Below are positions 12,950-63,258 of a stretch of 64,000 bases of DNA, one piece after another. Made by a program: the position numbers and the translations under genes. This DNA is from Escherichia phage vB_EcoM_SQ17, in the sequence record MW882907. One strand, 5' to 3'. How positions within the stretch are numbered: the stretch's first letter is position 1; every line of letters begins with the position of its first letter. Under the pieces are notes generated by a model. The model saw only the letters and a program-made list of their open reading frames with translations. It did no database searches and was not told the DNA's origin.

Positions 12950-13558
12950 TCAGTAACTGACAATAGACAGATTCCAGATTGTATAACGTCCATCTTGAAT
13001 AATAGAATCTACACGCAGTGTAGTCCCTATAGGGAGCATAAATTCACATTCGTCAGATATAAGTCTAGCATTAGACCGTCTTGTCGCTTCAGGGAAAGCT
13101 CCATTGAACTCACAAGATGGTGCAGCCAGAATCATATTAAGCATATGTTCACGGAAGTTGAAAGCAAATGGTGCATCTTTGATGCAGAACATATTAAATG
13201 TTCCGTAAAAATTATACGAAGCAAAGTTACGTGCTACACCGAACACTGGGCTGAAGCTCATTACTCTGTCAAATTTAATAATACTACCAATACCTTTATC
13301 ATCGAGTGTGGCCATAGTTTTCTTAGAGATTCCACGATACATTGTCTCAGGAACAGAAGACGTCCAATTTCTACGAACGATTGAACTTAACTCCTGTTGA
13401 ATACAGTCTGGCTTGTTTTCCATACACTGCCACAGTACACTTTGTTCAATGTCGCTGAATTGACTATCAATTTCGTACTGCAATACATCTTGATATTCGG
13501 GGTTTTGAGCACGACGAACCATTTCTTCAATTTCACACTCGTTATACGGCATAAACAT
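12950..13558 (-). CDS. modA: ADP-ribosyltransferase, ModA/ModB family (ModA position)
   Basis: 202 aa; paralog of the adjacent ORF; conserved YRG arginine motif and S-x-S region typical of R-S-E ADP-ribosyltransferases; ATG at 13556-13558 preceded by CCAGAGGAGAA. Confidence 0.6.
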   Translation of the reverse strand: MFMPYNECEIEEMVRRAQNPEYQDVLQYEIDSQFSDIEQSVLWQCMENKPDCIQQELSSIVRRNWTSSVPETMYRGISKKTMATLDDKGIGSIIKFDRVMSFSPVFGVARNFASYNFYGTFNMFCIKDAPFAFNFREHMLNMILAAPSCEFNGAFPEATRRSNARLISDECEFMLPIGTTLRVDSIIQDGRYTIWNLSIVSY

Positions 13559-13615: not shown

Positions 13616-14197
13616 CTAAAAATTCAACATTTTTAAATGAATGATTTTGTATAACCGAGATAAAGGGTCATATTCTAAGTCTTCAATTTCCACAATCTCA
13701 AATCTAGAGATACCTGAGACCATGTACTCTTGTTCAGATTCAATCATATCTAGGACGTCAACACGCTTTTCTTCCATAACATGCTTAGGGTTCTTCCCGG
13801 CAAGTACAATGTTAACCATGTTTTGGTAGTAATCAAAAATGAATGGAGCATTCCTGAGACTAAGAATAGTGTACGTCTGATATTCCCATCTCCCAGAGAA
13901 TTGACGAGCTGTACTGAAATCAGTTGTGAACGATGTTACTCGTCCAGGAGACCAATGACATCCAACAGAAAGAAGGGAAAGACGTTCTACTTCTTCTGGA
14001 GTTACACCACGGTAGAGTTCTACTGGTACTGTAGAAGTCATATGCTTACGAACAAGATGGTCTAATTCATAGTGGAAATCCGGGTCTTCCTTAGAATCGG
14101 TGCAAGCCCAGAGAATGTTTTGTTCTTGGCGGGTGAATTTGCTATCAATCAGATTTGTTAGGTATTCGCGTTCTTGAAGTTCAGATTGACATGTCAT
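13616..14197 (-). CDS. modB: ADP-ribosyltransferase, ModA/ModB family (ModB position)
   Basis: 193 aa; ELYRGV and FSTARQF motifs; paralogous to 12950-13558; A versus B assignment is positional only. Confidence 0.6.
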   Translation of the reverse strand: MTCQSELQEREYLTNLIDSKFTRQEQNILWACTDSKEDPDFHYELDHLVRKHMTSTVPVELYRGVTPEEVERLSLLSVGCHWSPGRVTSFTTDFSTARQFSGRWEYQTYTILSLRNAPFIFDYYQNMVNIVLAGKNPKHVMEEKRVDVLDMIESEQEYMVSGISRFEIVEIEDLEYDPLSRLYKIIHLKMLNF

Positions 14198-18615: not shown

Positions 18616-19275
18616 TTAACCTCGATTCATAAATGCATTAAATATTTGGTCATCAACAGAAATTTCTAATTCGACTTCAATTGCTTCAGCCTTTTCTTCA
18701 GGTGGTAATTCGTATCCACACACTACAATTTTTTCATCGATATCAAAATACACAGAAGCAATATGATTAATGTTATTTTCGGTTAAGTCTAAATCAACAT
18801 CAACATCTTTTTGACCTACACTTAAAGGATAACTAATACGGGTTATTTTATTATCTTTAACAAAGAGTCCACCAACATACTCTGTACTACGTTTGAAGTT
18901 TACACGTTTCCGAAATGAAAGATATGATGCATCTTTACCGTGAGCTCGGCTCATAGGACATAATGAATAACTAGAATAAGAGATGTCAAATCCTACACCT
19001 TCAATATGAGCCAACGTGTCATGATTAAACCAATTATAATCATATGCCAAATCCATTATATTGTAATATGTGAAAGGCACCGGATTAACATCATATGTTG
19101 TACCTTTAAAATCTGCCCAGGCAACGATTTCGTTATCTTTAACAATTACAAAAATTACACCAATATGATATCCGTTATTATTTTCATTCGGCGTTATATT
19201 ATAACATTGTGCATTAGGAAATTTACCATATTTAAATGGCGCATTTTTGTGCATATAATAAATCATATTATTCAC
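18616..19275 (-). CDS. hypothetical protein (61.2 position)
   Basis: 219 aa ORF. Confidence 0.5.
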   Translation of the reverse strand: MNNMIYYMHKNAPFKYGKFPNAQCYNITPNENNNGYHIGVIFVIVKDNEIVAWADFKGTTYDVNPVPFTYYNIMDLAYDYNWFNHDTLAHIEGVGFDISYSSYSLCPMSRAHGKDASYLSFRKRVNFKRSTEYVGGLFVKDNKITRISYPLSVGQKDVDVDLDLTENNINHIASVYFDIDEKIVVCGYELPPEEKAEAIEVELEISVDDQIFNAFMNRG

Positions 19276-27682: not shown

Positions 27683-28084
27683 TTATAGATTCGGTTTATA
27701 TGATTTAAATGTTTCGAATTCGCCTTTATTCATAAGAGCTTTGAATTCGTCAGGACGCATAGCTTTGTCATCGATAATCCAATCATATACTGGTTTATGT
27801 GTTAGCAAATTATGGTACTTCAATCCAATGTTTGCCAAGTTCTGAATCAGACTCGGGAGAATGTCAATTGCTATACGACCAGGACCGACTGACTTCATAC
27901 CGCGAGCAGTGTAAAGCGTTATTGTATGCCCTGCATCATACAGGGCATTAATGGCAGACACCATTTCGACGTCTGGTTTGAAGTTCACGTAATCACGATT
28001 GTTATTCCACTCTGTTATACAATCATCGACATCAAAACAAAGATTAAGCATGTTTTCTACACGGTGCATTAGATTCGTTCCCAT
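27683..28084 (-). CDS. HAD-superfamily phosphatase (KdsC/GmhB-like small sugar-phosphate phosphatase)
   Basis: 133 aa; motif I FDVDDCIT (DxDxT), motif II TLYTARG, C-terminal DWIIDDK; alternative ATG at 28067-28069. Confidence 0.65.
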   Translation of the reverse strand: MGTNLMHRVENMLNLCFDVDDCITEWNNNRDYVNFKPDVEMVSAINALYDAGHTITLYTARGMKSVGPGRIAIDILPSLIQNLANIGLKYHNLLTHKPVYDWIIDDKAMRPDEFKALMNKGEFETFKSYKPNL

Positions 28085-29754
28085 TGATGAGTGATATCGC
28101 CACCGATTGGACGATAGGAAACACCAGTTTCTTTATCAGTTAGTACCCATTTACCAGGATTTTTTGTAATCAGAGTAGCCGTTACAGGTTCTGCTACGTC
28201 ATAACTAATAGAACCGTCCTGAAGTACACGGCCCATGTTACGTAATTGCTTAGTCAGAAGTTCCATACCTTTATAATATGCGGCTACCGCTTTAAGTGGA
28301 TTATTCTTGAAATAACCACCTAATGCAATCCAGATAATTGCTACAGCCAAATGATGATACTCGTTAAACGAACTCATCTTTCCATATTTGTAAACTAATG
28401 GATTGATGTTAATAGTCACATTACAAGTTGTTTCATCAATAGTAAACTGCCCCCAGGTCGGATTAGCGTTGAATTCATCATAACCTGAAACAGCATAAAG
28501 CACTTTAGCTTCATCATACAATTTTGGCCCATAAATCTTGGTTTCGCCAAAATATCCACGAGGGTCGATAAACTTGACTTCGCCATTATCAGTAATCATA
28601 GTATTACTGAAGTTCGGGTCACCATGAATAACAGAGTACTGTCCCTGAGAACGGTTATGATAACGAATAAGGTGTTCTAAAGCTTGTTTCAGCATTGGCT
28701 TCAGACGCCCAATCTTAGTGTAGTTCACATGTGTGATTTTACCAAATGAATCAATCAATGGTTGAATACTTTCACAACGATCAATAACTTTAGTATAGAA
28801 TTCTTTAGTGAAATCACGACGAACAGTTTCAGGACTTACAAAATAAGTGTCTGTGCTGAATTTCAGTGCATCTAAAATTGCATCAACAATTTGTGGACGA
28901 GCAAGACTCGATTTGGATTTAATATATTCAAATGCCGGCTTACCTTTAATGCGTTCCATTTCAAAGTTATTTTCATTAACAGAAACTAACTGAGGAACTG
29001 AATCTGATTTCACTTTAAGATACCATGAAATCTCATCTTTCTGAAGAGCTCGGCCTTGTTCGGTTAATGCGAATTTAGTTACAGTTTCTTCACCAATTTC
29101 AACGGCATTAAAACTACGATTAAGTTCACGAACTTCATGAGCCTTTTCAAGTTTAGGCATATCACCTAAATCAATTAGATTCATAAGCTCTGATTTATTG
29201 AATGCGCTGCCGTAAAGGAATTCTACGAAATCACGTCCTTTGCAGTATTCATGAATTTCCTCATCAGTAGAACCCATATAGAATTCCCAGTCTTTGAACT
29301 GATAAATTCCTACAACATTACCACCTGTTGAACCTACGTTAGTGATATTTTCGCCGTCGAAATTATATCGACATTCGTCACCCTTAACATAGATTGCGTT
29401 AACATTCCAAGACCATGAACCAAAATCAGGAATAATATCACACCAGTTAACAATTACATTATGGCCGTCTAAATCTTTGTGTAATTTAGCAAGAGCATAA
29501 GCAGAACCATACGCTTCATCAACTGTACGAATAGTCACATTGAACCCTTCTTGCTCACAATAAGCTCGAACAGTTTCAGCAAATTTTGAATGAACTACTA
29601 CAATAATTTCATCTGCGCCAAGGTCAGAATAAATTGTATACAAATTGCTCAGAATAGTGTCTTGTTTATAGTTAACAAGCACCTTAGGAATATGATGCGT
29701 TATTGGATACAAACGAGTTGCCAGTCCAGCACCAAGAATAACAGCTTTTTTCAT
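28069..29754 (-). CDS. bifunctional sugar-1-phosphate nucleotidyltransferase (N-terminal) and APH/choline-kinase-like sugar kinase (C-terminal)
   Basis: 561 aa; N-terminal ILGAGLATRL sugar nucleotidyltransferase signature; C-terminal IHGDPNFSNTMITDNGEVKFIDPRG kinase catalytic loop (HGD...N, IDxx). Confidence 0.75.
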   Translation of the reverse strand: MKKAVILGAGLATRLYPITHHIPKVLVNYKQDTILSNLYTIYSDLGADEIIVVVHSKFAETVRAYCEQEGFNVTIRTVDEAYGSAYALAKLHKDLDGHNVIVNWCDIIPDFGSWSWNVNAIYVKGDECRYNFDGENITNVGSTGGNVVGIYQFKDWEFYMGSTDEEIHEYCKGRDFVEFLYGSAFNKSELMNLIDLGDMPKLEKAHEVRELNRSFNAVEIGEETVTKFALTEQGRALQKDEISWYLKVKSDSVPQLVSVNENNFEMERIKGKPAFEYIKSKSSLARPQIVDAILDALKFSTDTYFVSPETVRRDFTKEFYTKVIDRCESIQPLIDSFGKITHVNYTKIGRLKPMLKQALEHLIRYHNRSQGQYSVIHGDPNFSNTMITDNGEVKFIDPRGYFGETKIYGPKLYDEAKVLYAVSGYDEFNANPTWGQFTIDETTCNVTININPLVYKYGKMSSFNEYHHLAVAIIWIALGGYFKNNPLKAVAAYYKGMELLTKQLRNMGRVLQDGSISYDVAEPVTATLITKNPGKWVLTDKETGVSYRPIGGDITHQWERI

Positions 29755-29795
29755 GTTGTGGTCCTCATTGGTAAGTAGGAGTATTGTACACTATT

Positions 29796-29939
29796 CTAGT
29801 TAAAGCATTCATACTTTGCTTGTAGTCCAATCATAATCCATCCGATTACAAGTGTTGGAATCATTACTGGAGCCGTTAAGCTCCAGTAGATAGTCATGAC
29901 AAGCATCAATAGTAAAAGTCCTATTGTTATTGCTTTCAT
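29796..29939 (-). CDS. small membrane peptide (47 aa), translationally coupled, absent from ORF track
   Basis: ATG overlaps the TAA of the isomerase gene (TAATG); translation MKAITIGLLLLMLVMTIYWSLTAPVMIPTLVIGWIMIGLQAKYECFN is strongly hydrophobic. Confidence 0.35.
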   Translation of the reverse strand: MKAITIGLLLLMLVMTIYWSLTAPVMIPTLVIGWIMIGLQAKYECFN

Positions 29940-30571
29940 TATTCGCCTCGTAACATGGCACCTAGTGCACCACCAGGGTGGAACTTAAGGAAGTCATTAG
30001 AGGTAAATCCACGCTCAGATGAAAGGTTGATAGCAAAAGTATCGATAAGCGCTAACAACAATGTAGTGGACATGGTCGGAGCCAGAGAATTCTCATCAAC
30101 CTCTACTGCGATGCCTGTACAGAAAGAGTAATCAAAAAGGGCTTCATTTTCTTGTGGAATGTCTGGGTTACAATGCAACAGAATCTGTTTGACGTTCGGA
30201 CGAATCATTTTAAGATGCTTAGCCACGCCTATCATTTCTTCAGTTTTACCGGAACGACTAATATGAATCAACACATCATTAGGCGCAATGAATCCTGCAT
30301 CACCGTGAGAATAATGCCCAGTGTTCAAGTACATACTCGGGATACCGAGTGAAGCAAATGTCTCAGAAGCTTTAGTTGCAATATTAGCATTCTTACCAAC
30401 ACCTGTAATAATTACTCGGCTTTCATAATTACTAAGTCCTGGGCGTCGAAGAGTTTCTAGAATAGCATTATAACGAGCAGGGTTTTGACTAATTACTTTG
30501 GCCATAGCGGCCAAAGAAGAAGCTTGTTTTATGATTGCGTCAATAGCGATAGTAATAGGAGTAGTTTTCAT
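29939..30571 (-). CDS. D-arabinose-5-phosphate isomerase, KdsD/GutQ-like single SIS domain
   Basis: 210 aa; ITGVGKNANIATKASETFASLG, HISRSGKTEE, LAPTMSTT and FHPGGALG align with the KdsD SIS domain hallmarks (GxGKSG, SNSG, LAPTSSTT, HPGGALG). Confidence 0.8.
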   Translation of the reverse strand: MKTTPITIAIDAIIKQASSLAAMAKVISQNPARYNAILETLRRPGLSNYESRVIITGVGKNANIATKASETFASLGIPSMYLNTGHYSHGDAGFIAPNDVLIHISRSGKTEEMIGVAKHLKMIRPNVKQILLHCNPDIPQENEALFDYSFCTGIAVEVDENSLAPTMSTTLLLALIDTFAINLSSERGFTSNDFLKFHPGGALGAMLRGE

Positions 30572-60285: not shown

Positions 60286-60867
60286 TTATAACAACCCTGT
60301 CAAATCATTCCAATGCTTCCGGCATAATGACACATATCTATCGGTGTCACCAATTTCAATTTGACTGCCATCTGTAATTGGAAGTCCGTCTTCCGTGACT
60401 CTAGCTACCATTGTGGCCTTTTTACCACAATGACAGACACCTTTAAGTTCAACAAGCTTATCAGCAATAGCCATTAATGCTTGAGAACCTTCAAATAGAT
60501 TACCTTTAAAATCTGTTCGTAGTCCATATGCCATTACCGGCACATTGTATACGTCAACAATACGACTAAGTTGATACACCTTTTCAGTAGTTAAGAACTG
60601 AGCTTCGTCAACAAATACACAATGAATATCCTTTTGTGCTGCAGCCCATTTATAGAATTCAAAGATATCCATGTCTTTTGTAATTATATTGGCGTCCTGA
60701 CGAATACCAATACGGGAGACTATTTCACCTTTTGAATCGCGAGTATCAATAGCCGGTTTAAGAACTAATACACCCATGCCACGTTCTTTATAGTTATGTG
60801 CGGCAGTAAGTAATGAAGCAGACTTACCAGCGTTCATAGCGGCATATGTAAAAATTAAACTAGCCAT
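60286..60867 (-). CDS. tk: thymidine kinase
   Basis: 193 aa; near-identical to remembered T4 Tk; P-loop AAMNAGKS and C-terminal zinc ribbon. Confidence 0.9.
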   Translation of the reverse strand: MASLIFTYAAMNAGKSASLLTAAHNYKERGMGVLVLKPAIDTRDSKGEIVSRIGIRQDANIITKDMDIFEFYKWAAAQKDIHCVFVDEAQFLTTEKVYQLSRIVDVYNVPVMAYGLRTDFKGNLFEGSQALMAIADKLVELKGVCHCGKKATMVARVTEDGLPITDGSQIEIGDTDRYVSLCRKHWNDLTGLL

Positions 60868-61260: not shown

Positions 61261-61463
61261 TATTCTTCTACATGTTGTTTACGACCTTTCTTATCAATAA
61301 AGGTATATTCAACGAATGTTCCGATGTAGTCTTTATCTACATCATGTGGACTATTAATTGGGCATTTAGTACGGCAAATGCGTTCCCATTGACGAATAAT
61401 TACTGCCTTATTCTTTGGGTCATATGGATGTGGATAATGTATATTCATAATAATGGTTCCCAA
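61236..61463 (-). CDS. hypothetical protein
   Basis: 75 aa ORF. Confidence 0.4.
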   Translation of the reverse strand: MGTIIMNIHYPHPYDPKNKAVIIRQWERICRTKCPINSPHDVDKDYIGTFVEYTFIDKKGRKQHVEEYCLKVTWL

Positions 61464-61942
61464 TCAACAATCACAATTTCTAGTTTAGTGGAATACGTAT
61501 CTAAAATCTCTTCGATGATATCCCAGTTTCCGCCACCGATACCTGCACCAATTCTTGGCATATAAATTACAGGCTTTGTTATCTTATTCTTTCCGAATTC
61601 ATTTAATTCTATTATACAATTCATTAAAGCAGAGTACTCAAAATTAGGTCCTGGCTCAAACTGTGTATAAAGATTAAAGCAATAAGCTTTATGTGTCTTA
61701 AAATATTTTTCATAAACCGAATAAGTCCCGAGTTTAGACTCGTCTCCGAATTCGGTTTGAAGTTTATCGGCTTCCAGAATTTTTGGATAAGCCTTTGCTA
61801 ATTGTCCTGCCACACCAGCGCCCATTGTATGAAAACAATTACACCCATGAGCGATATTATTACCTTTAGAAAACAGGGCGACAATATCGCCCTTGATATA
61901 GTTTTTAATCACTTGCTGCAAGTCCTCTAGTATAAGAGTCAA
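61445..61942 (-). CDS. macro-domain protein (ADP-ribose binding or hydrolysing)
   Basis: 165 aa; HGCNCFHTMGAGVAGQLA and RIGAGIGGGNW match macro-domain signature blocks. Confidence 0.6.
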   Translation of the reverse strand: MTLILEDLQQVIKNYIKGDIVALFSKGNNIAHGCNCFHTMGAGVAGQLAKAYPKILEADKLQTEFGDESKLGTYSVYEKYFKTHKAYCFNLYTQFEPGPNFEYSALMNCIIELNEFGKNKITKPVIYMPRIGAGIGGGNWDIIEEILDTYSTKLEIVIVDWEPLL

Positions 61943-62252
61943 CTAGGCGGTCCACCATAGAATTGCATGCTGCCTTATCTTTAGGTTCCGCCACCGAGCA
62001 TTCTAATATTTGCCATTTTTTATAGTATCTTTTAATTAAGGTAGACGCCTTGAACCTACTAGACGCCCCATCTTTTTCTCCGTCTTTATACGCATATAAC
62101 AATTTTTGTGAAAAATCTACTTTACACTCTTGACTTTTACCACAATAATCAGACGCTGTTCTGTTTGTATACTCCGTTACATCAGTATATGTAGTATTAG
62201 CAAGAGCGTTAAATGAAACCAAGCCAACTATTAAAGCCAACATTTTGGTCAT
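61905..62252 (-). CDS. secreted or periplasmic protein
   Basis: 115 aa with N-terminal signal peptide. Confidence 0.45.
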   Translation of the reverse strand: MTKMLALIVGLVSFNALANTTYTDVTEYTNRTASDYCGKSQECKVDFSQKLLYAYKDGEKDGASSRFKASTLIKRYYKKWQILECSVAEPKDKAACNSMVDRLVDSYTRGLAASD

Positions 62253-62791
62253 TCTTTTATTTCCAGTAGTTTGGTTGATTTAAGGTAATTAGCCTTTTCT
62301 AGGACTTCAGAAGCATATTTACTTCCAGCACTTGTCTTCCATCCCGCATTATATGAGGATATAGCTTTTCTTATATCCCCGTTATGTATATTTAACCAAT
62401 AAGAAAATTCGATATAAGCCCATCTGGCTGAATTAGACCGCTTAGATAGCATTTTCTTAATTTGGGCATCAGTCATATTATAACCAAGCTGGTTAATTCT
62501 TGCCCTCATTGTTGGTAGATAATTTTGGAACATTCCATACGCATGGTGACCTTTCTTATCTTTAAGATTAATACCGGCAGATGATTCCTGCCATAGTATT
62601 GCGGCCATTATGTATCCAAGTCCTTTCTTATGCATATTTTCATGCGTTTTAAATTTTCCATCCTTAGAAAACTGTTCCCCAAACTGATAAGCATAATTCA
62701 AGTTATCGAGTTGGACATTACTAAAAGTATGCTCGGAGCTATGTGCTGATAACGAAAGAGCAAATAGACCAGCGAGTAGTGCTTTTCTCAT
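62249..62791 (-). CDS. periplasmic lytic transglycosylase (SLT domain)
   Basis: 180 aa; signal peptide; catalytic ES-motif LWQESS and downstream SYNAG. Confidence 0.6.
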   Translation of the reverse strand: MRKALLAGLFALSLSAHSSEHTFSNVQLDNLNYAYQFGEQFSKDGKFKTHENMHKKGLGYIMAAILWQESSAGINLKDKKGHHAYGMFQNYLPTMRARINQLGYNMTDAQIKKMLSKRSNSARWAYIEFSYWLNIHNGDIRKAISSYNAGWKTSAGSKYASEVLEKANYLKSTKLLEIKE

Positions 62792-62799
62792 GTTTACCT

Positions 62800-63258
62800 C
62801 TAGATTTTAATCACTGCTTTAGAAGCTTTTCCTGGTAGTCGTTTACTGTTAATAATAGCCATTCTGCATTGAAGAGTCTTCATTTTGAATGCTGGATTTT
62901 CGCGACAAACTGTAAGTCCTAACCAAAGATTTCCGTCAGTTATTTCTAAACGGCCTGGACGATATTCGACACCTTCGACAAAATCTTCGTCAACATCTGG
63001 ACGTGCCGGCATTGATAAAAATTCTGCAACTTCTTTAACATGATTTTTTACTTTACGAAATAATTCAAAAACGTAGTTCTCATCTATTTCTCTCTGGATA
63101 GCACGATCTAAGAGATGTTGAGAATACTTGATATGAAAGCCTGGTAGTCCAAGAGACTTTGCAGCATCTTTTATACCGGCATTTATTTTGCGGAACTCCG
63201 TTTCAAAGATTCGACGGAGTTTATTACGGCGGATAAAAACGTCAGAATTGATAGTCAT
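62800..63258 (-). CDS. regB: RegB sequence-specific endoribonuclease
   Basis: 152 aa; near-identical to remembered T4 RegB (MTINTEVFIRRNKLRR ... RMAIINS.RLPGKASKAVIK). Confidence 0.85.
   Translation of the reverse strand: MTINSDVFIRRNKLRRIFETEFRKINAGIKDAAKSLGLPGFHIKYSQHLLDRAIQREIDENYVFELFRKVKNHVKEVAEFLSMPARPDVDEDFVEGVEYRPGRLEITDGNLWLGLTVCRENPAFKMKTLQCRMAIINSKRLPGKASKAVIKI

What the first reader, a model, noticed from the sequence alone, without database searches (positions are those of the whole stretch)
61445..61942. Macro-domain protein in the tk to regB interval
The 165-aa protein carries macro-domain signature blocks. In a phage that also encodes ModA/ModB ADP-ribosyltransferases, a macro domain could reverse or read ADP-ribosylation, or counter host defences that act through ADP-ribose signals or DNA ADP-ribosylation.
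Basis: partly seen in the sequence, partly recalled or inferred. Interest (0 to 1): 0.6.

Follow-up and report, generated by a model that had tools for sequence, protein, structure and literature searches.

The report
Phage macrodomain that counters DarT2 defence
This gene is the RB69-type copy of phage T4 gene tk.4 (AdfM), a small macrodomain enzyme already reported to protect T4 from the bacterial DarTG2 defence that ADP-ribosylates phage DNA. The finding is real but already known.

Summary

The true start is most likely GTG at 61912 (155 aa), not the TTG at 61942 (165 aa).

A November 2025 preprint named it adfM: its deletion sensitises T4 to DarTG2.

The most likely mechanism is removal of ADP-ribose from thymidines that DarT2 modifies in phage single-stranded DNA.

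One detail is added here. The catalytic position holds an invariant Gln (Gln84), as in Streptomyces SCO6735 (Gln85) and BT1257. It is not the Lys found in DarG, TARG1 and PhiKZ AdfM. The protein fails the DarG family cut-off.

Reversal of the phage's own ModA/ModB modification is not supported.

Verdict: already known, low interest. Biochemistry of the T4-type enzyme is still unpublished in the library searched.

The parts
61445..61912 (-). tk.4 / adfM coding sequence, 155 aa from GTG (stop TGA 61447..61445): a single macro domain
   Evidence: ORF. 85% identical over 155 aa to T4 Tk.4. Start aligned with the ATG of T4, teqdroes and Klebsiella EI. Database clusters at 97% identity are 155 aa long. 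Pfam Macro. AF2 model and fold searches.
61913..61942 (-). It lies inside the 3' end of vs and holds the GAGGA ribosome-binding motif at 61927..61923
   Evidence: tblastn matches to all but the closest relatives begin at residue 11. GAGG is invariant in four phages. Sequence read.
61838..61840 (-). Codon of Asn25 (in HGCNC), invariant in the family; it aligns with SCO6735 Asn27 and PhiKZ AdfM Asn23
   Evidence: Invariant column. Alignment A3. SCO6735 Asn27 is described as conserved in almost all enzymatically active macrodomains, and mutating it in DarG greatly reduced turnover (PMC9411070). A conserved-Asn mutant of PhiKZ AdfM has reduced activity, and the Methods list a gp104 N23A construct (PMC13309987).
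61814..61822 (-). Codons of Gly31-Ala32-Gly33, the first glycine-rich loop of the macro fold
   Evidence: G31 and G33 are invariant across the eight reference macrodomains in A3.
61661..61663 (-). Codon CAG of Gln84 (in NLYTQ), at the position of the catalytic Lys of TARG1 (K84) and DarG (K80); equals SCO6735 Gln85
   Evidence: Invariant in 62-64 family members. Profile alignment to TARG1 and BT1257. Alignment A3. SCO6735 Q85A is inactive (PMC9411070).
61529..61549 (-). Codons of Gly122-Ala-Gly124-Ile-Gly-Gly-Gly128, the second glycine-rich (diphosphate-binding) loop. G122 and G124 equal SCO6735 G126 and G128. TARG1 Asp125 is replaced by Gly126
   Evidence: Alignment A3. Family invariants P119, I121, G122, G124. 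SCO6735 G128E loses activity.
61446..61448 (-). ATG of the next gene (tk.3), overlapping the tk.4 stop as ATGA. With the GTGATTAA overlap at the 5' end this suggests translational coupling within the regB-vs.1-vs-tk.4-tk.3-tk.2-tk.1-tk gene string
   Evidence: Sequence. The same 4-base overlap is annotated in LH01, and the same gene order is annotated in T4.

Best explanation
The gene is the orthologue of T4 tk.4 (adfM). It most likely encodes a free-standing ADP-ribosyl glycohydrolase that protects the phage from DarTG2-type toxin-antitoxin defence. On infection, DarT2 ADP-ribosylates thymidines in TNTC motifs of single-stranded phage DNA and blocks replication. The macrodomain binds the ADP-ribose moiety through its two glycine-rich loops and Asn25, hydrolyses the thymidine-ribose bond, and restores normal DNA. 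Chemically it should work like Streptomyces SCO6735 rather than like DarG: an invariant Gln84, not a Lys, positions the distal ribose, probably with a water-mediated step. Shown: macro fold, orthology and synteny with T4 tk.4, and conservation of the residues that matter in SCO6735. Shown by others for T4: the DarTG2-specific requirement for tk.4. Inferred: enzymatic removal of ADP-ribose from DNA by this protein, and the Gln-based mechanism.
Against: No biochemistry for the T4-type protein was found in the library searched. The preprint infers the enzymatic step from genetics and a predicted structure. This phage's own copy (15% different from T4) has not been tested. The catalytic Lys of DarG and TARG1 and the Asp of TARG1 are absent. 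The protein also lacks the 6-residue mobile-loop insertion after the Gln, and the strongly basic character (pI 5.6 versus 9.85) that the SCO6735 authors link to high DNA activity. However, the biochemically active PhiKZ AdfM is acidic too (pI 5.05). SCO6735 also inhibits DarT by binding, so protection need not be purely catalytic.
Confidence: 0.8

Rival explanations
1. The protein protects against DarT2 without catalysis, either by binding and inhibiting the toxin or by acting only as an ADP-ribose reader.
For: The catalytic Lys is replaced by Gln. The ALC1 macrodomain, which from general knowledge binds poly(ADP-ribose) without hydrolysing it, also shows Gln at this aligned position. Catalytically dead SCO6735 Q85A still inhibits DarT in vitro (PMC9411070). 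The phage factors AdfA and AdfB act by contacting DarT.
Against: Gln-type SCO6735 was the most efficient of SCO6735, DarG and TARG1 at removing ADP-ribose from modified DNA. The residues invariant across the phage family are the active-site ones (N25, Q84, G122, G124), not a surface patch. The protein has no counterpart of the C-terminal DarT-binding domain of DarG: it covers only profile positions 4-146 of 338.
Confidence: 0.08
2. It erases or tunes the phage's own ADP-ribosylation (Alt, ModA, ModB) of host proteins or RNA-protein adducts.
For: ModA/ModB-like genes are in the same window (12950..13558 and 13616..14197; PHROG 832). The macrodomain lies among prereplicative genes. Related enzymes of this class (TARG1, SCO6735) also act on ADP-ribosylated proteins.
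Against: From general knowledge, the T4 transferases modify arginine, a linkage removed by ARH-type hydrolases rather than macrodomains. In T4, tk.4 reached significance specifically in the presence of DarTG2. Homologues occur widely in phage groups outside the T4-like phages, such as Pseudomonas, Vibrio, Campylobacter and Acinetobacter phages. Whether those phages carry Mod genes was not checked.
Confidence: 0.05
3. It is a small-molecule enzyme, as the database labels say: an ADP-ribose 1''-phosphate phosphatase (Poa1p-like, 'phosphatase') or an O-acetyl-ADP-ribose deacetylase.
Against: These labels are inherited from the domain name, not from tests. No source of ADP-ribose 1''-phosphate in T4-type infection is known to me. 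Poa1p has Ser, not Gln, at the position of Gln84 (alignment). This activity would not explain the DarTG2 phenotype of T4.
Confidence: 0.04
4. Besides DarT2, it counters other ADP-ribose-based immunity, such as RNA ADP-ribosylation or ADP-ribose-derived signals.
For: The family is frequent in phages (5.5% of records). From general knowledge, enzymes of this class accept several substrates.
Against: No data were found. From memory only, T4 carrying tk.4 is still restricted by the mRNA-ADP-ribosylating CmdTAC system. The HIDEN-SEQ screens reported tk.4 only for DarTG2.
Confidence: 0.03

Closest known systems
T4 Tk.4 = AdfM (anti-DarT factor Macrodomain), bioRxiv 10.1101/2025.11.20.689424
   Same: 85% identical over all 155 residues. 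Same length, same start position, and same place between vs and tk.3. Same invariant motifs HGCNC, NLYTQ and PRIGAGIG.
   Different: 24 substitutions, for example GIGGGNW here against GIGKGNW in T4. GTG instead of ATG as start codon. The host phage is a Mosigvirus (RB69-like), not a Tequatrovirus. This copy has not been tested.
Streptomyces coelicolor SCO6735 (PDB 5e3b) and Bacteroides BT1257 (2afc/2fg1): Gln-type ALC1-like macrodomains
   Different: Lacks the 6-residue loop insertion after the Gln. Acidic rather than strongly basic (pI 5.6 against 9.85 and 8.9). Only 22-31% identical. Phage-encoded rather than cellular.
DarG antitoxin macrodomain (Thermus 5m31/5m3e, Mycobacterium 5m3i, Thermosipho 7omu)
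   Different: About 20% identity. Gln84 instead of the catalytic Lys80. No C-terminal DarT-binding domain and no adjacent darT gene. Scores 30.8 bits against the family cut-off of 250.
PhiKZ gp104 AdfM (Cell Rep 2026, PMC13309987)
   Same: A single-domain phage macrodomain with the same name and the same role against DarTG2. It shares the conserved Asn and is also acidic.
   Different: Only 19% identical in the multiple alignment, and BLASTP aligns just 23 residues. PhiKZ AdfM keeps the DarG-type Lys (FPTK) and scores 132.9 bits on the DarG profile against 32.6 here. It is imported into a phage nucleus. The two 'AdfM' proteins look like separate acquisitions.
Human TARG1/OARD1 (4j5r) and yeast Poa1p (6lfr)
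   Same: Top Foldseek matches (E 3e-10 and 2e-9; TM 0.69-0.81). Poa1p shares the H-x-C-N-C motif.
   Different: The TARG1 Lys84/Asp125 dyad is Gln84/Gly126 here. Poa1p has Ser at that position and a different substrate.

Membership tests
Macro domain superfamily (Pfam PF01661) | Profile match above the curated gathering score | tested here: met
   28.4 bits against 22, E 1.7e-6, profile positions 2-117 of 118.
Macro domain superfamily (Pfam PF01661) | Three-layer alpha/beta/alpha macro fold | tested here: met
Macro domain superfamily (Pfam PF01661) | ADP-ribose binding | not testable with these tools
   Only the conserved Asn25 and the two Gly-rich loops could be checked by alignment.
ALC1-like / TARG1-like class of macrodomains | Closest structural and sequence relatives belong to this class | tested here: met
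ALC1-like / TARG1-like class of macrodomains | Catalytic Lys (TARG1 K84, DarG K80) and, for TARG1, Asp125 | tested here: not met
   Gln84 and Gly126 at these columns.
DarG antitoxin (NCBIfam NF048014; PADLOC PDLC02990) | Family-level profile score | tested here: not met
   30.8 bits against a cut-off of 250. 32.6 bits in PADLOC against 132.9 for PhiKZ AdfM.
DarG antitoxin (NCBIfam NF048014; PADLOC PDLC02990) | C-terminal DarT-binding domain and an adjacent darT gene | tested here: not met
   The 155-aa protein covers only profile positions 4-146 of 329-338. Its neighbours are vs and tk.3.
SCO6735/BT1257 subclass (Gln-type DNA ADP-ribosyl hydrolases) | Gln at the catalytic position with the His/Asn/Gly/Gly set | tested here: met
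   Q84, H22, N25, G122 and G124 align with Q85, H24, N27, G126 and G128. Their roles are described in PMC9411070.
SCO6735/BT1257 subclass (Gln-type DNA ADP-ribosyl hydrolases) | Extended mobile loop after the Gln and an electropositive DNA groove | tested here: not met
   A 6-column gap where SCO6735 and BT1257 have KTGSKG / YKDSKG. pI 5.6 against 9.85 and 8.92. Surface charge itself was not computed.
T4 Tk.4 / AdfM orthologous group | Full-length high identity and conserved position between vs and tk.3 | tested here: met
   85% over 155 aa. Synteny shown.
T4 Tk.4 / AdfM orthologous group | Required for growth on a DarTG2 host | not testable with these tools
   Shown for T4 only.
Poa1p-type ADP-ribose 1''-phosphate phosphatase (source of the 'phosphatase' label) | Poa1p active-site residues probed by mutant structures (H23, S30, F152) | tested here: inconclusive
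   In the alignment H23 aligns with H22 and S30 with T29, while the position of Gln84 is Ser in Poa1p. F152 was not mapped.

The most novel reading that the evidence does not exclude
The T4/RB69-type AdfM may not be a captured DarG. It could be a separate, phage-specialised lineage of Gln-type macrodomains, convergent with the Lys-type PhiKZ AdfM. It would use the water-mediated SCO6735-like mechanism on a stripped-down scaffold, with no mobile loop and an acidic surface. It might also have a wider substrate range than DarG, covering protein or nucleic-acid-end ADP-ribose, which would let one small gene cover several ADP-ribosylating defences.
Probability: 0.25. Interest if true: 0.45.

Novelty: already known. 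Interest (0 to 1): 0.2.

Why it matters
DarTG systems stop phage replication by ADP-ribosylating DNA. Knowing which phages carry erasers helps predict host range, for example when choosing therapeutic phages. This window adds no new kind of gene. It does show that an RB69-like phage carries the same eraser as T4, together with an AdfA allele that has His at the position of the known DarT1-neutralising substitution. It also shows that the widespread T4-type eraser has a Gln active site, unlike DarG. That difference matters for anyone designing mutants, inhibitors or activity assays.

Tried and rejected
1. The 165-aa TTG start was rejected in favour of GTG 61912. The alignment with T4, teqdroes and Klebsiella EI starts, the conserved GAGG, and database clusters of 155 aa all point there. 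The 126-aa internal-ATG model used in the LH01 record was also rejected, because it removes strands 1-2 and the invariant Asn25.

2. Membership of the DarG family was tested and failed.

3. Pfam gave no hit for the two Mod-like ORFs or for the Srd-like ORF. PHROGs was needed to identify the Mod-like ORFs.

4. A terminator-like hairpin lies inside the gene's 5' end (61893..61875). It is identical in T4 and teqdroes but absent in Klebsiella EI. The count of such sites in the region is not above shuffles (4 against 2.2 +/- 1.5), so I treat it as a by-product of the KGDIVAL codons.

5. The promoter scan found fewer sigma-70-like sites than shuffles (8 against 14.3), so nothing was concluded from it.

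6. Overall charge was considered as an argument against DNA binding and dropped, because the biochemically active PhiKZ AdfM is equally acidic.

It was repeated without that row.

8. Two literature searches failed on terms that were too short.

Full report
**What is there**

The minus strand holds an ORF from 61942 (TTG) to 61445 (TGA), 165 aa. It lies in a string of closely packed or overlapping minus-strand genes. By comparison with T4, these are regB (62800..63258, 77% identical), vs.1 (62249..62791), vs (61905..62252, 67%), this gene, three small ORFs (tk.3, tk.2, tk.1) and tk (60286..60867, 81%).

The window as a whole is an RB69-like T-even phage. The best protein match is Escherichia phage LH01, a Mosigvirus, at 99.4%. 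The 9 kb around the gene is 96-97% identical to many such phages.

**Start codon**

The 165-aa length is the longest mechanical ORF. In T4 the orthologue tk.4 is 155 aa and starts at an ATG that overlaps the vs stop codon. An alignment of this region from the window, T4, phage teqdroes and Klebsiella phage EI puts their ATG on the window's GTG at 61912..61910. An invariant GAGG lies 10-11 bases upstream.

tblastn matches to everything but the nearest relatives begin at residue 11. The 97%-identical database cluster, with 184 member sequences, is 155 aa. I therefore place the gene at 61445..61912.

Its start overlaps the vs stop (GTGATTAA), and its stop overlaps the tk.3 start (ATGA). Some GenBank records, LH01 for example, start the gene at an internal ATG and give 126 aa. 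That version cuts off the first two strands and the invariant Asn25, so it is almost certainly wrong.

**Is it a macro domain?**

Yes, on four lines of evidence:
- Pfam Macro scores 28.4 bits against a gathering score of 22 and covers nearly the whole model.
- A profile of 62 homologues hits solved macrodomains at 1e-17 (BT1257), 2e-16 (TARG1), 9e-15 (SCO6735), 1e-13 (Poa1p, Mycobacterium DarG) and 3e-11 (Thermus DarG).
- An AlphaFold2 model built on 64 sequences has mean pLDDT 95.9 and pTM 0.91.
- Foldseek against the PDB gives probability 1.00 and TM 0.68-0.81 to TARG1, Poa1p, DarG, BT1257 and SCO6735.

**What is already known**

The T4 orthologue is 85% identical over all 155 residues. The T4 reference record already notes an 'A1pp phosphatase motif', and many close relatives are annotated 'macro domain protein'.

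A preprint of November 2025 (10.1101/2025.11.20.689424) screened a T4 transposon library on a host expressing DarTG2. It found tk.4 as the single significant hit and showed that a clean knock-out is sensitised. It noted the predicted structural similarity to the Mycobacterium DarG macrodomain and renamed the gene adfM. The enzymatic step is stated there as likely, not shown.

Two other papers bear on this. An earlier one had shown that T4 lacking both adfA and adfN remains DarTG2-resistant, and predicted a further factor (PMC11825919). Independently, a macrodomain of PhiKZ (gp104), also named AdfM, was shown in vitro to remove DarT2-made ADP-ribose from DNA (PMC13309987).

**How it most likely works**

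DarT2 ADP-ribosylates thymidine in single-stranded DNA and blocks replication. The window protein is best explained as an eraser of that mark.

In a multiple alignment with T4 Tk.4, BT1257, SCO6735, TARG1, two DarG macrodomains and PhiKZ AdfM, the column holding the catalytic Lys of TARG1 (K84), DarG (K80) and PhiKZ AdfM (FPTK) is Gln in the window protein (NLYTQ, Gln84). It is also Gln in T4, BT1257 and SCO6735 (Gln85). TARG1 Asp125 is Gly126 here.

Gln84 is invariant in 62-64 homologues down to 34% identity, as are Asn25, Gly122 and Gly124. His22 is conserved in at least 90% of them. These positions correspond to SCO6735 Asn27, Gly126, Gly128 and His24.

The numbering was checked by counting along the 5e3b chain, which reproduces the paper's His24, Val25, Asn27 and Gln85.

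For SCO6735 the paper reports three things:
- it efficiently removes DarT-made thymidine ADP-ribose;
- it rescues cells from DarT;
- the Q85A and Q85E mutants lose all activity, and the authors propose a water-mediated mechanism.

So a Gln at this position is compatible with, and in that enzyme required for, this chemistry.

The window protein is not a full member of the SCO6735 subclass. It lacks the 6-residue loop insertion after the Gln and is acidic (pI 5.6 against 9.85). PhiKZ AdfM is acidic too (5.05) and is active on DNA, so charge is not an argument against the model.

**Relation to DarG**

DarG is the only defence-related profile the protein hits. The scores are 32.6 bits (PADLOC) and 30.8 bits (NCBIfam, cut-off 250), over the macro part only. 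There is no C-terminal DarT-binding domain and no darT neighbour.

PhiKZ AdfM scores 132.9 bits on the same profile and keeps the Lys. BLASTP aligns only 23 residues between it and the window protein. The two proteins called AdfM therefore look like different lineages with the same job. That inference is mine and has not been tested by phylogeny.

**Consistency checks**

- T5 is the DarTG2-sensitive control in both papers. Its whole genome was fetched in three pieces and searched with tblastn (E up to 10) and with two profiles over its six-frame translation. Nothing was found, while the family profile found exactly one ORF in the window, at 2e-67.
- Homologues are common in phages: 2798 of 50,697 records, across Escherichia, Klebsiella, Salmonella, Pseudomonas, Vibrio, Acinetobacter and Aeromonas phages. 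They are rare in plasmids: 27 of 72,556 records.
- Among the four genes compared with T4 (regB 77%, vs 67%, tk 81%), tk.4 is the best conserved at 85%.

**Rivals**

*Protection by binding rather than catalysis.* This cannot be excluded, since dead SCO6735 still inhibits DarT. However, the pattern of invariance is that of an active site.

It is not supported: in T4 the gene reached significance specifically under DarTG2. From general knowledge, those transferases make arginine linkages that macrodomains do not usually remove.

*The 'phosphatase' and 'O-acetyl-ADP-ribose deacetylase' labels*. These are inherited domain names and would not explain the phenotype.

**Verdict**

The gene and its role are already described for the 85%-identical T4 orthologue.

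What remains open is biochemical proof for the T4-type enzyme, its Gln-based mechanism and its substrate range. Interest is low (0.2). Novelty: already known.

Noticed in passing
window 18619..19266 (-), probable start at Met5 (19254): The gp61.2/AdfA homologue is 99% identical to RB69 AdfA with three differences. One is RB69 Arg164 replaced by His (NNINR to NNINH). This is the same substitution as the R164H escape allele reported to let RB69 AdfA bind and neutralise DarT1 (PMC11825919). This phage would then naturally carry counter-measures to both DarTG1 and DarTG2.
   Followed up: partly
window 61875..61893 (-), codons 7-13 of tk.4: A terminator-like hairpin (AGGGCGAT-ATT-GTCGCCCT followed by GTTTTCT) lies 20 bases after the start codon. 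It is identical in T4 and teqdroes but not formed in Klebsiella phage EI. The number of such sites in the region is not above shuffles, so it is probably a by-product of the KGDIVAL codons.
   Followed up: partly
L001 4118..4498 (Escherichia phage LH01, PP434429): In this and probably other records the tk.4 orthologue is annotated from an internal ATG (126 aa). That removes the first two strands and the invariant Asn25, so it looks like an annotation error.
   Followed up: yes
L004 601..1080 (phage teqdroes) against L002 3923..4390 (T4): Tequatroviruses carry two very different tk.4 alleles, about 84% and about 58% identical to the query. Yet the first 50 or so bases of the gene are almost identical between T4 and teqdroes. 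This suggests a recombination boundary inside the gene.
   Followed up: partly
window 12950..13558 (-) and 13616..14197 (-): Two adjacent ModB/ModA-like ADP-ribosyltransferase ORFs (PHROG 832, E about 1e-37; 97-99% identical to those of LH01) have no Pfam match at E<=0.01.
   Followed up: partly
window 27686..30571 (-): Three genes here are 98.6-100% identical to LH01 genes. Those are annotated as phosphoheptose isomerase, a hypothetical protein similar to a putative UDP-arabinose biosynthesis enzyme, and arabinose 5-phosphate isomerase. This fits the arabinosyl-hydroxymethylcytosine DNA modification of RB69-like phages, which I know only from general knowledge. It was not examined further.
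   Followed up: no
L007 6648..8295 (phage T5, genes T5.102 and T5.105): T5 has two genes annotated as Sir2 (NAD-dependent deacetylase/ADP-ribosylase) but no detectable ALC1-like macrodomain by tblastn or profile search. T5 is the phage both studies used as DarTG2-sensitive.
   Followed up: partly
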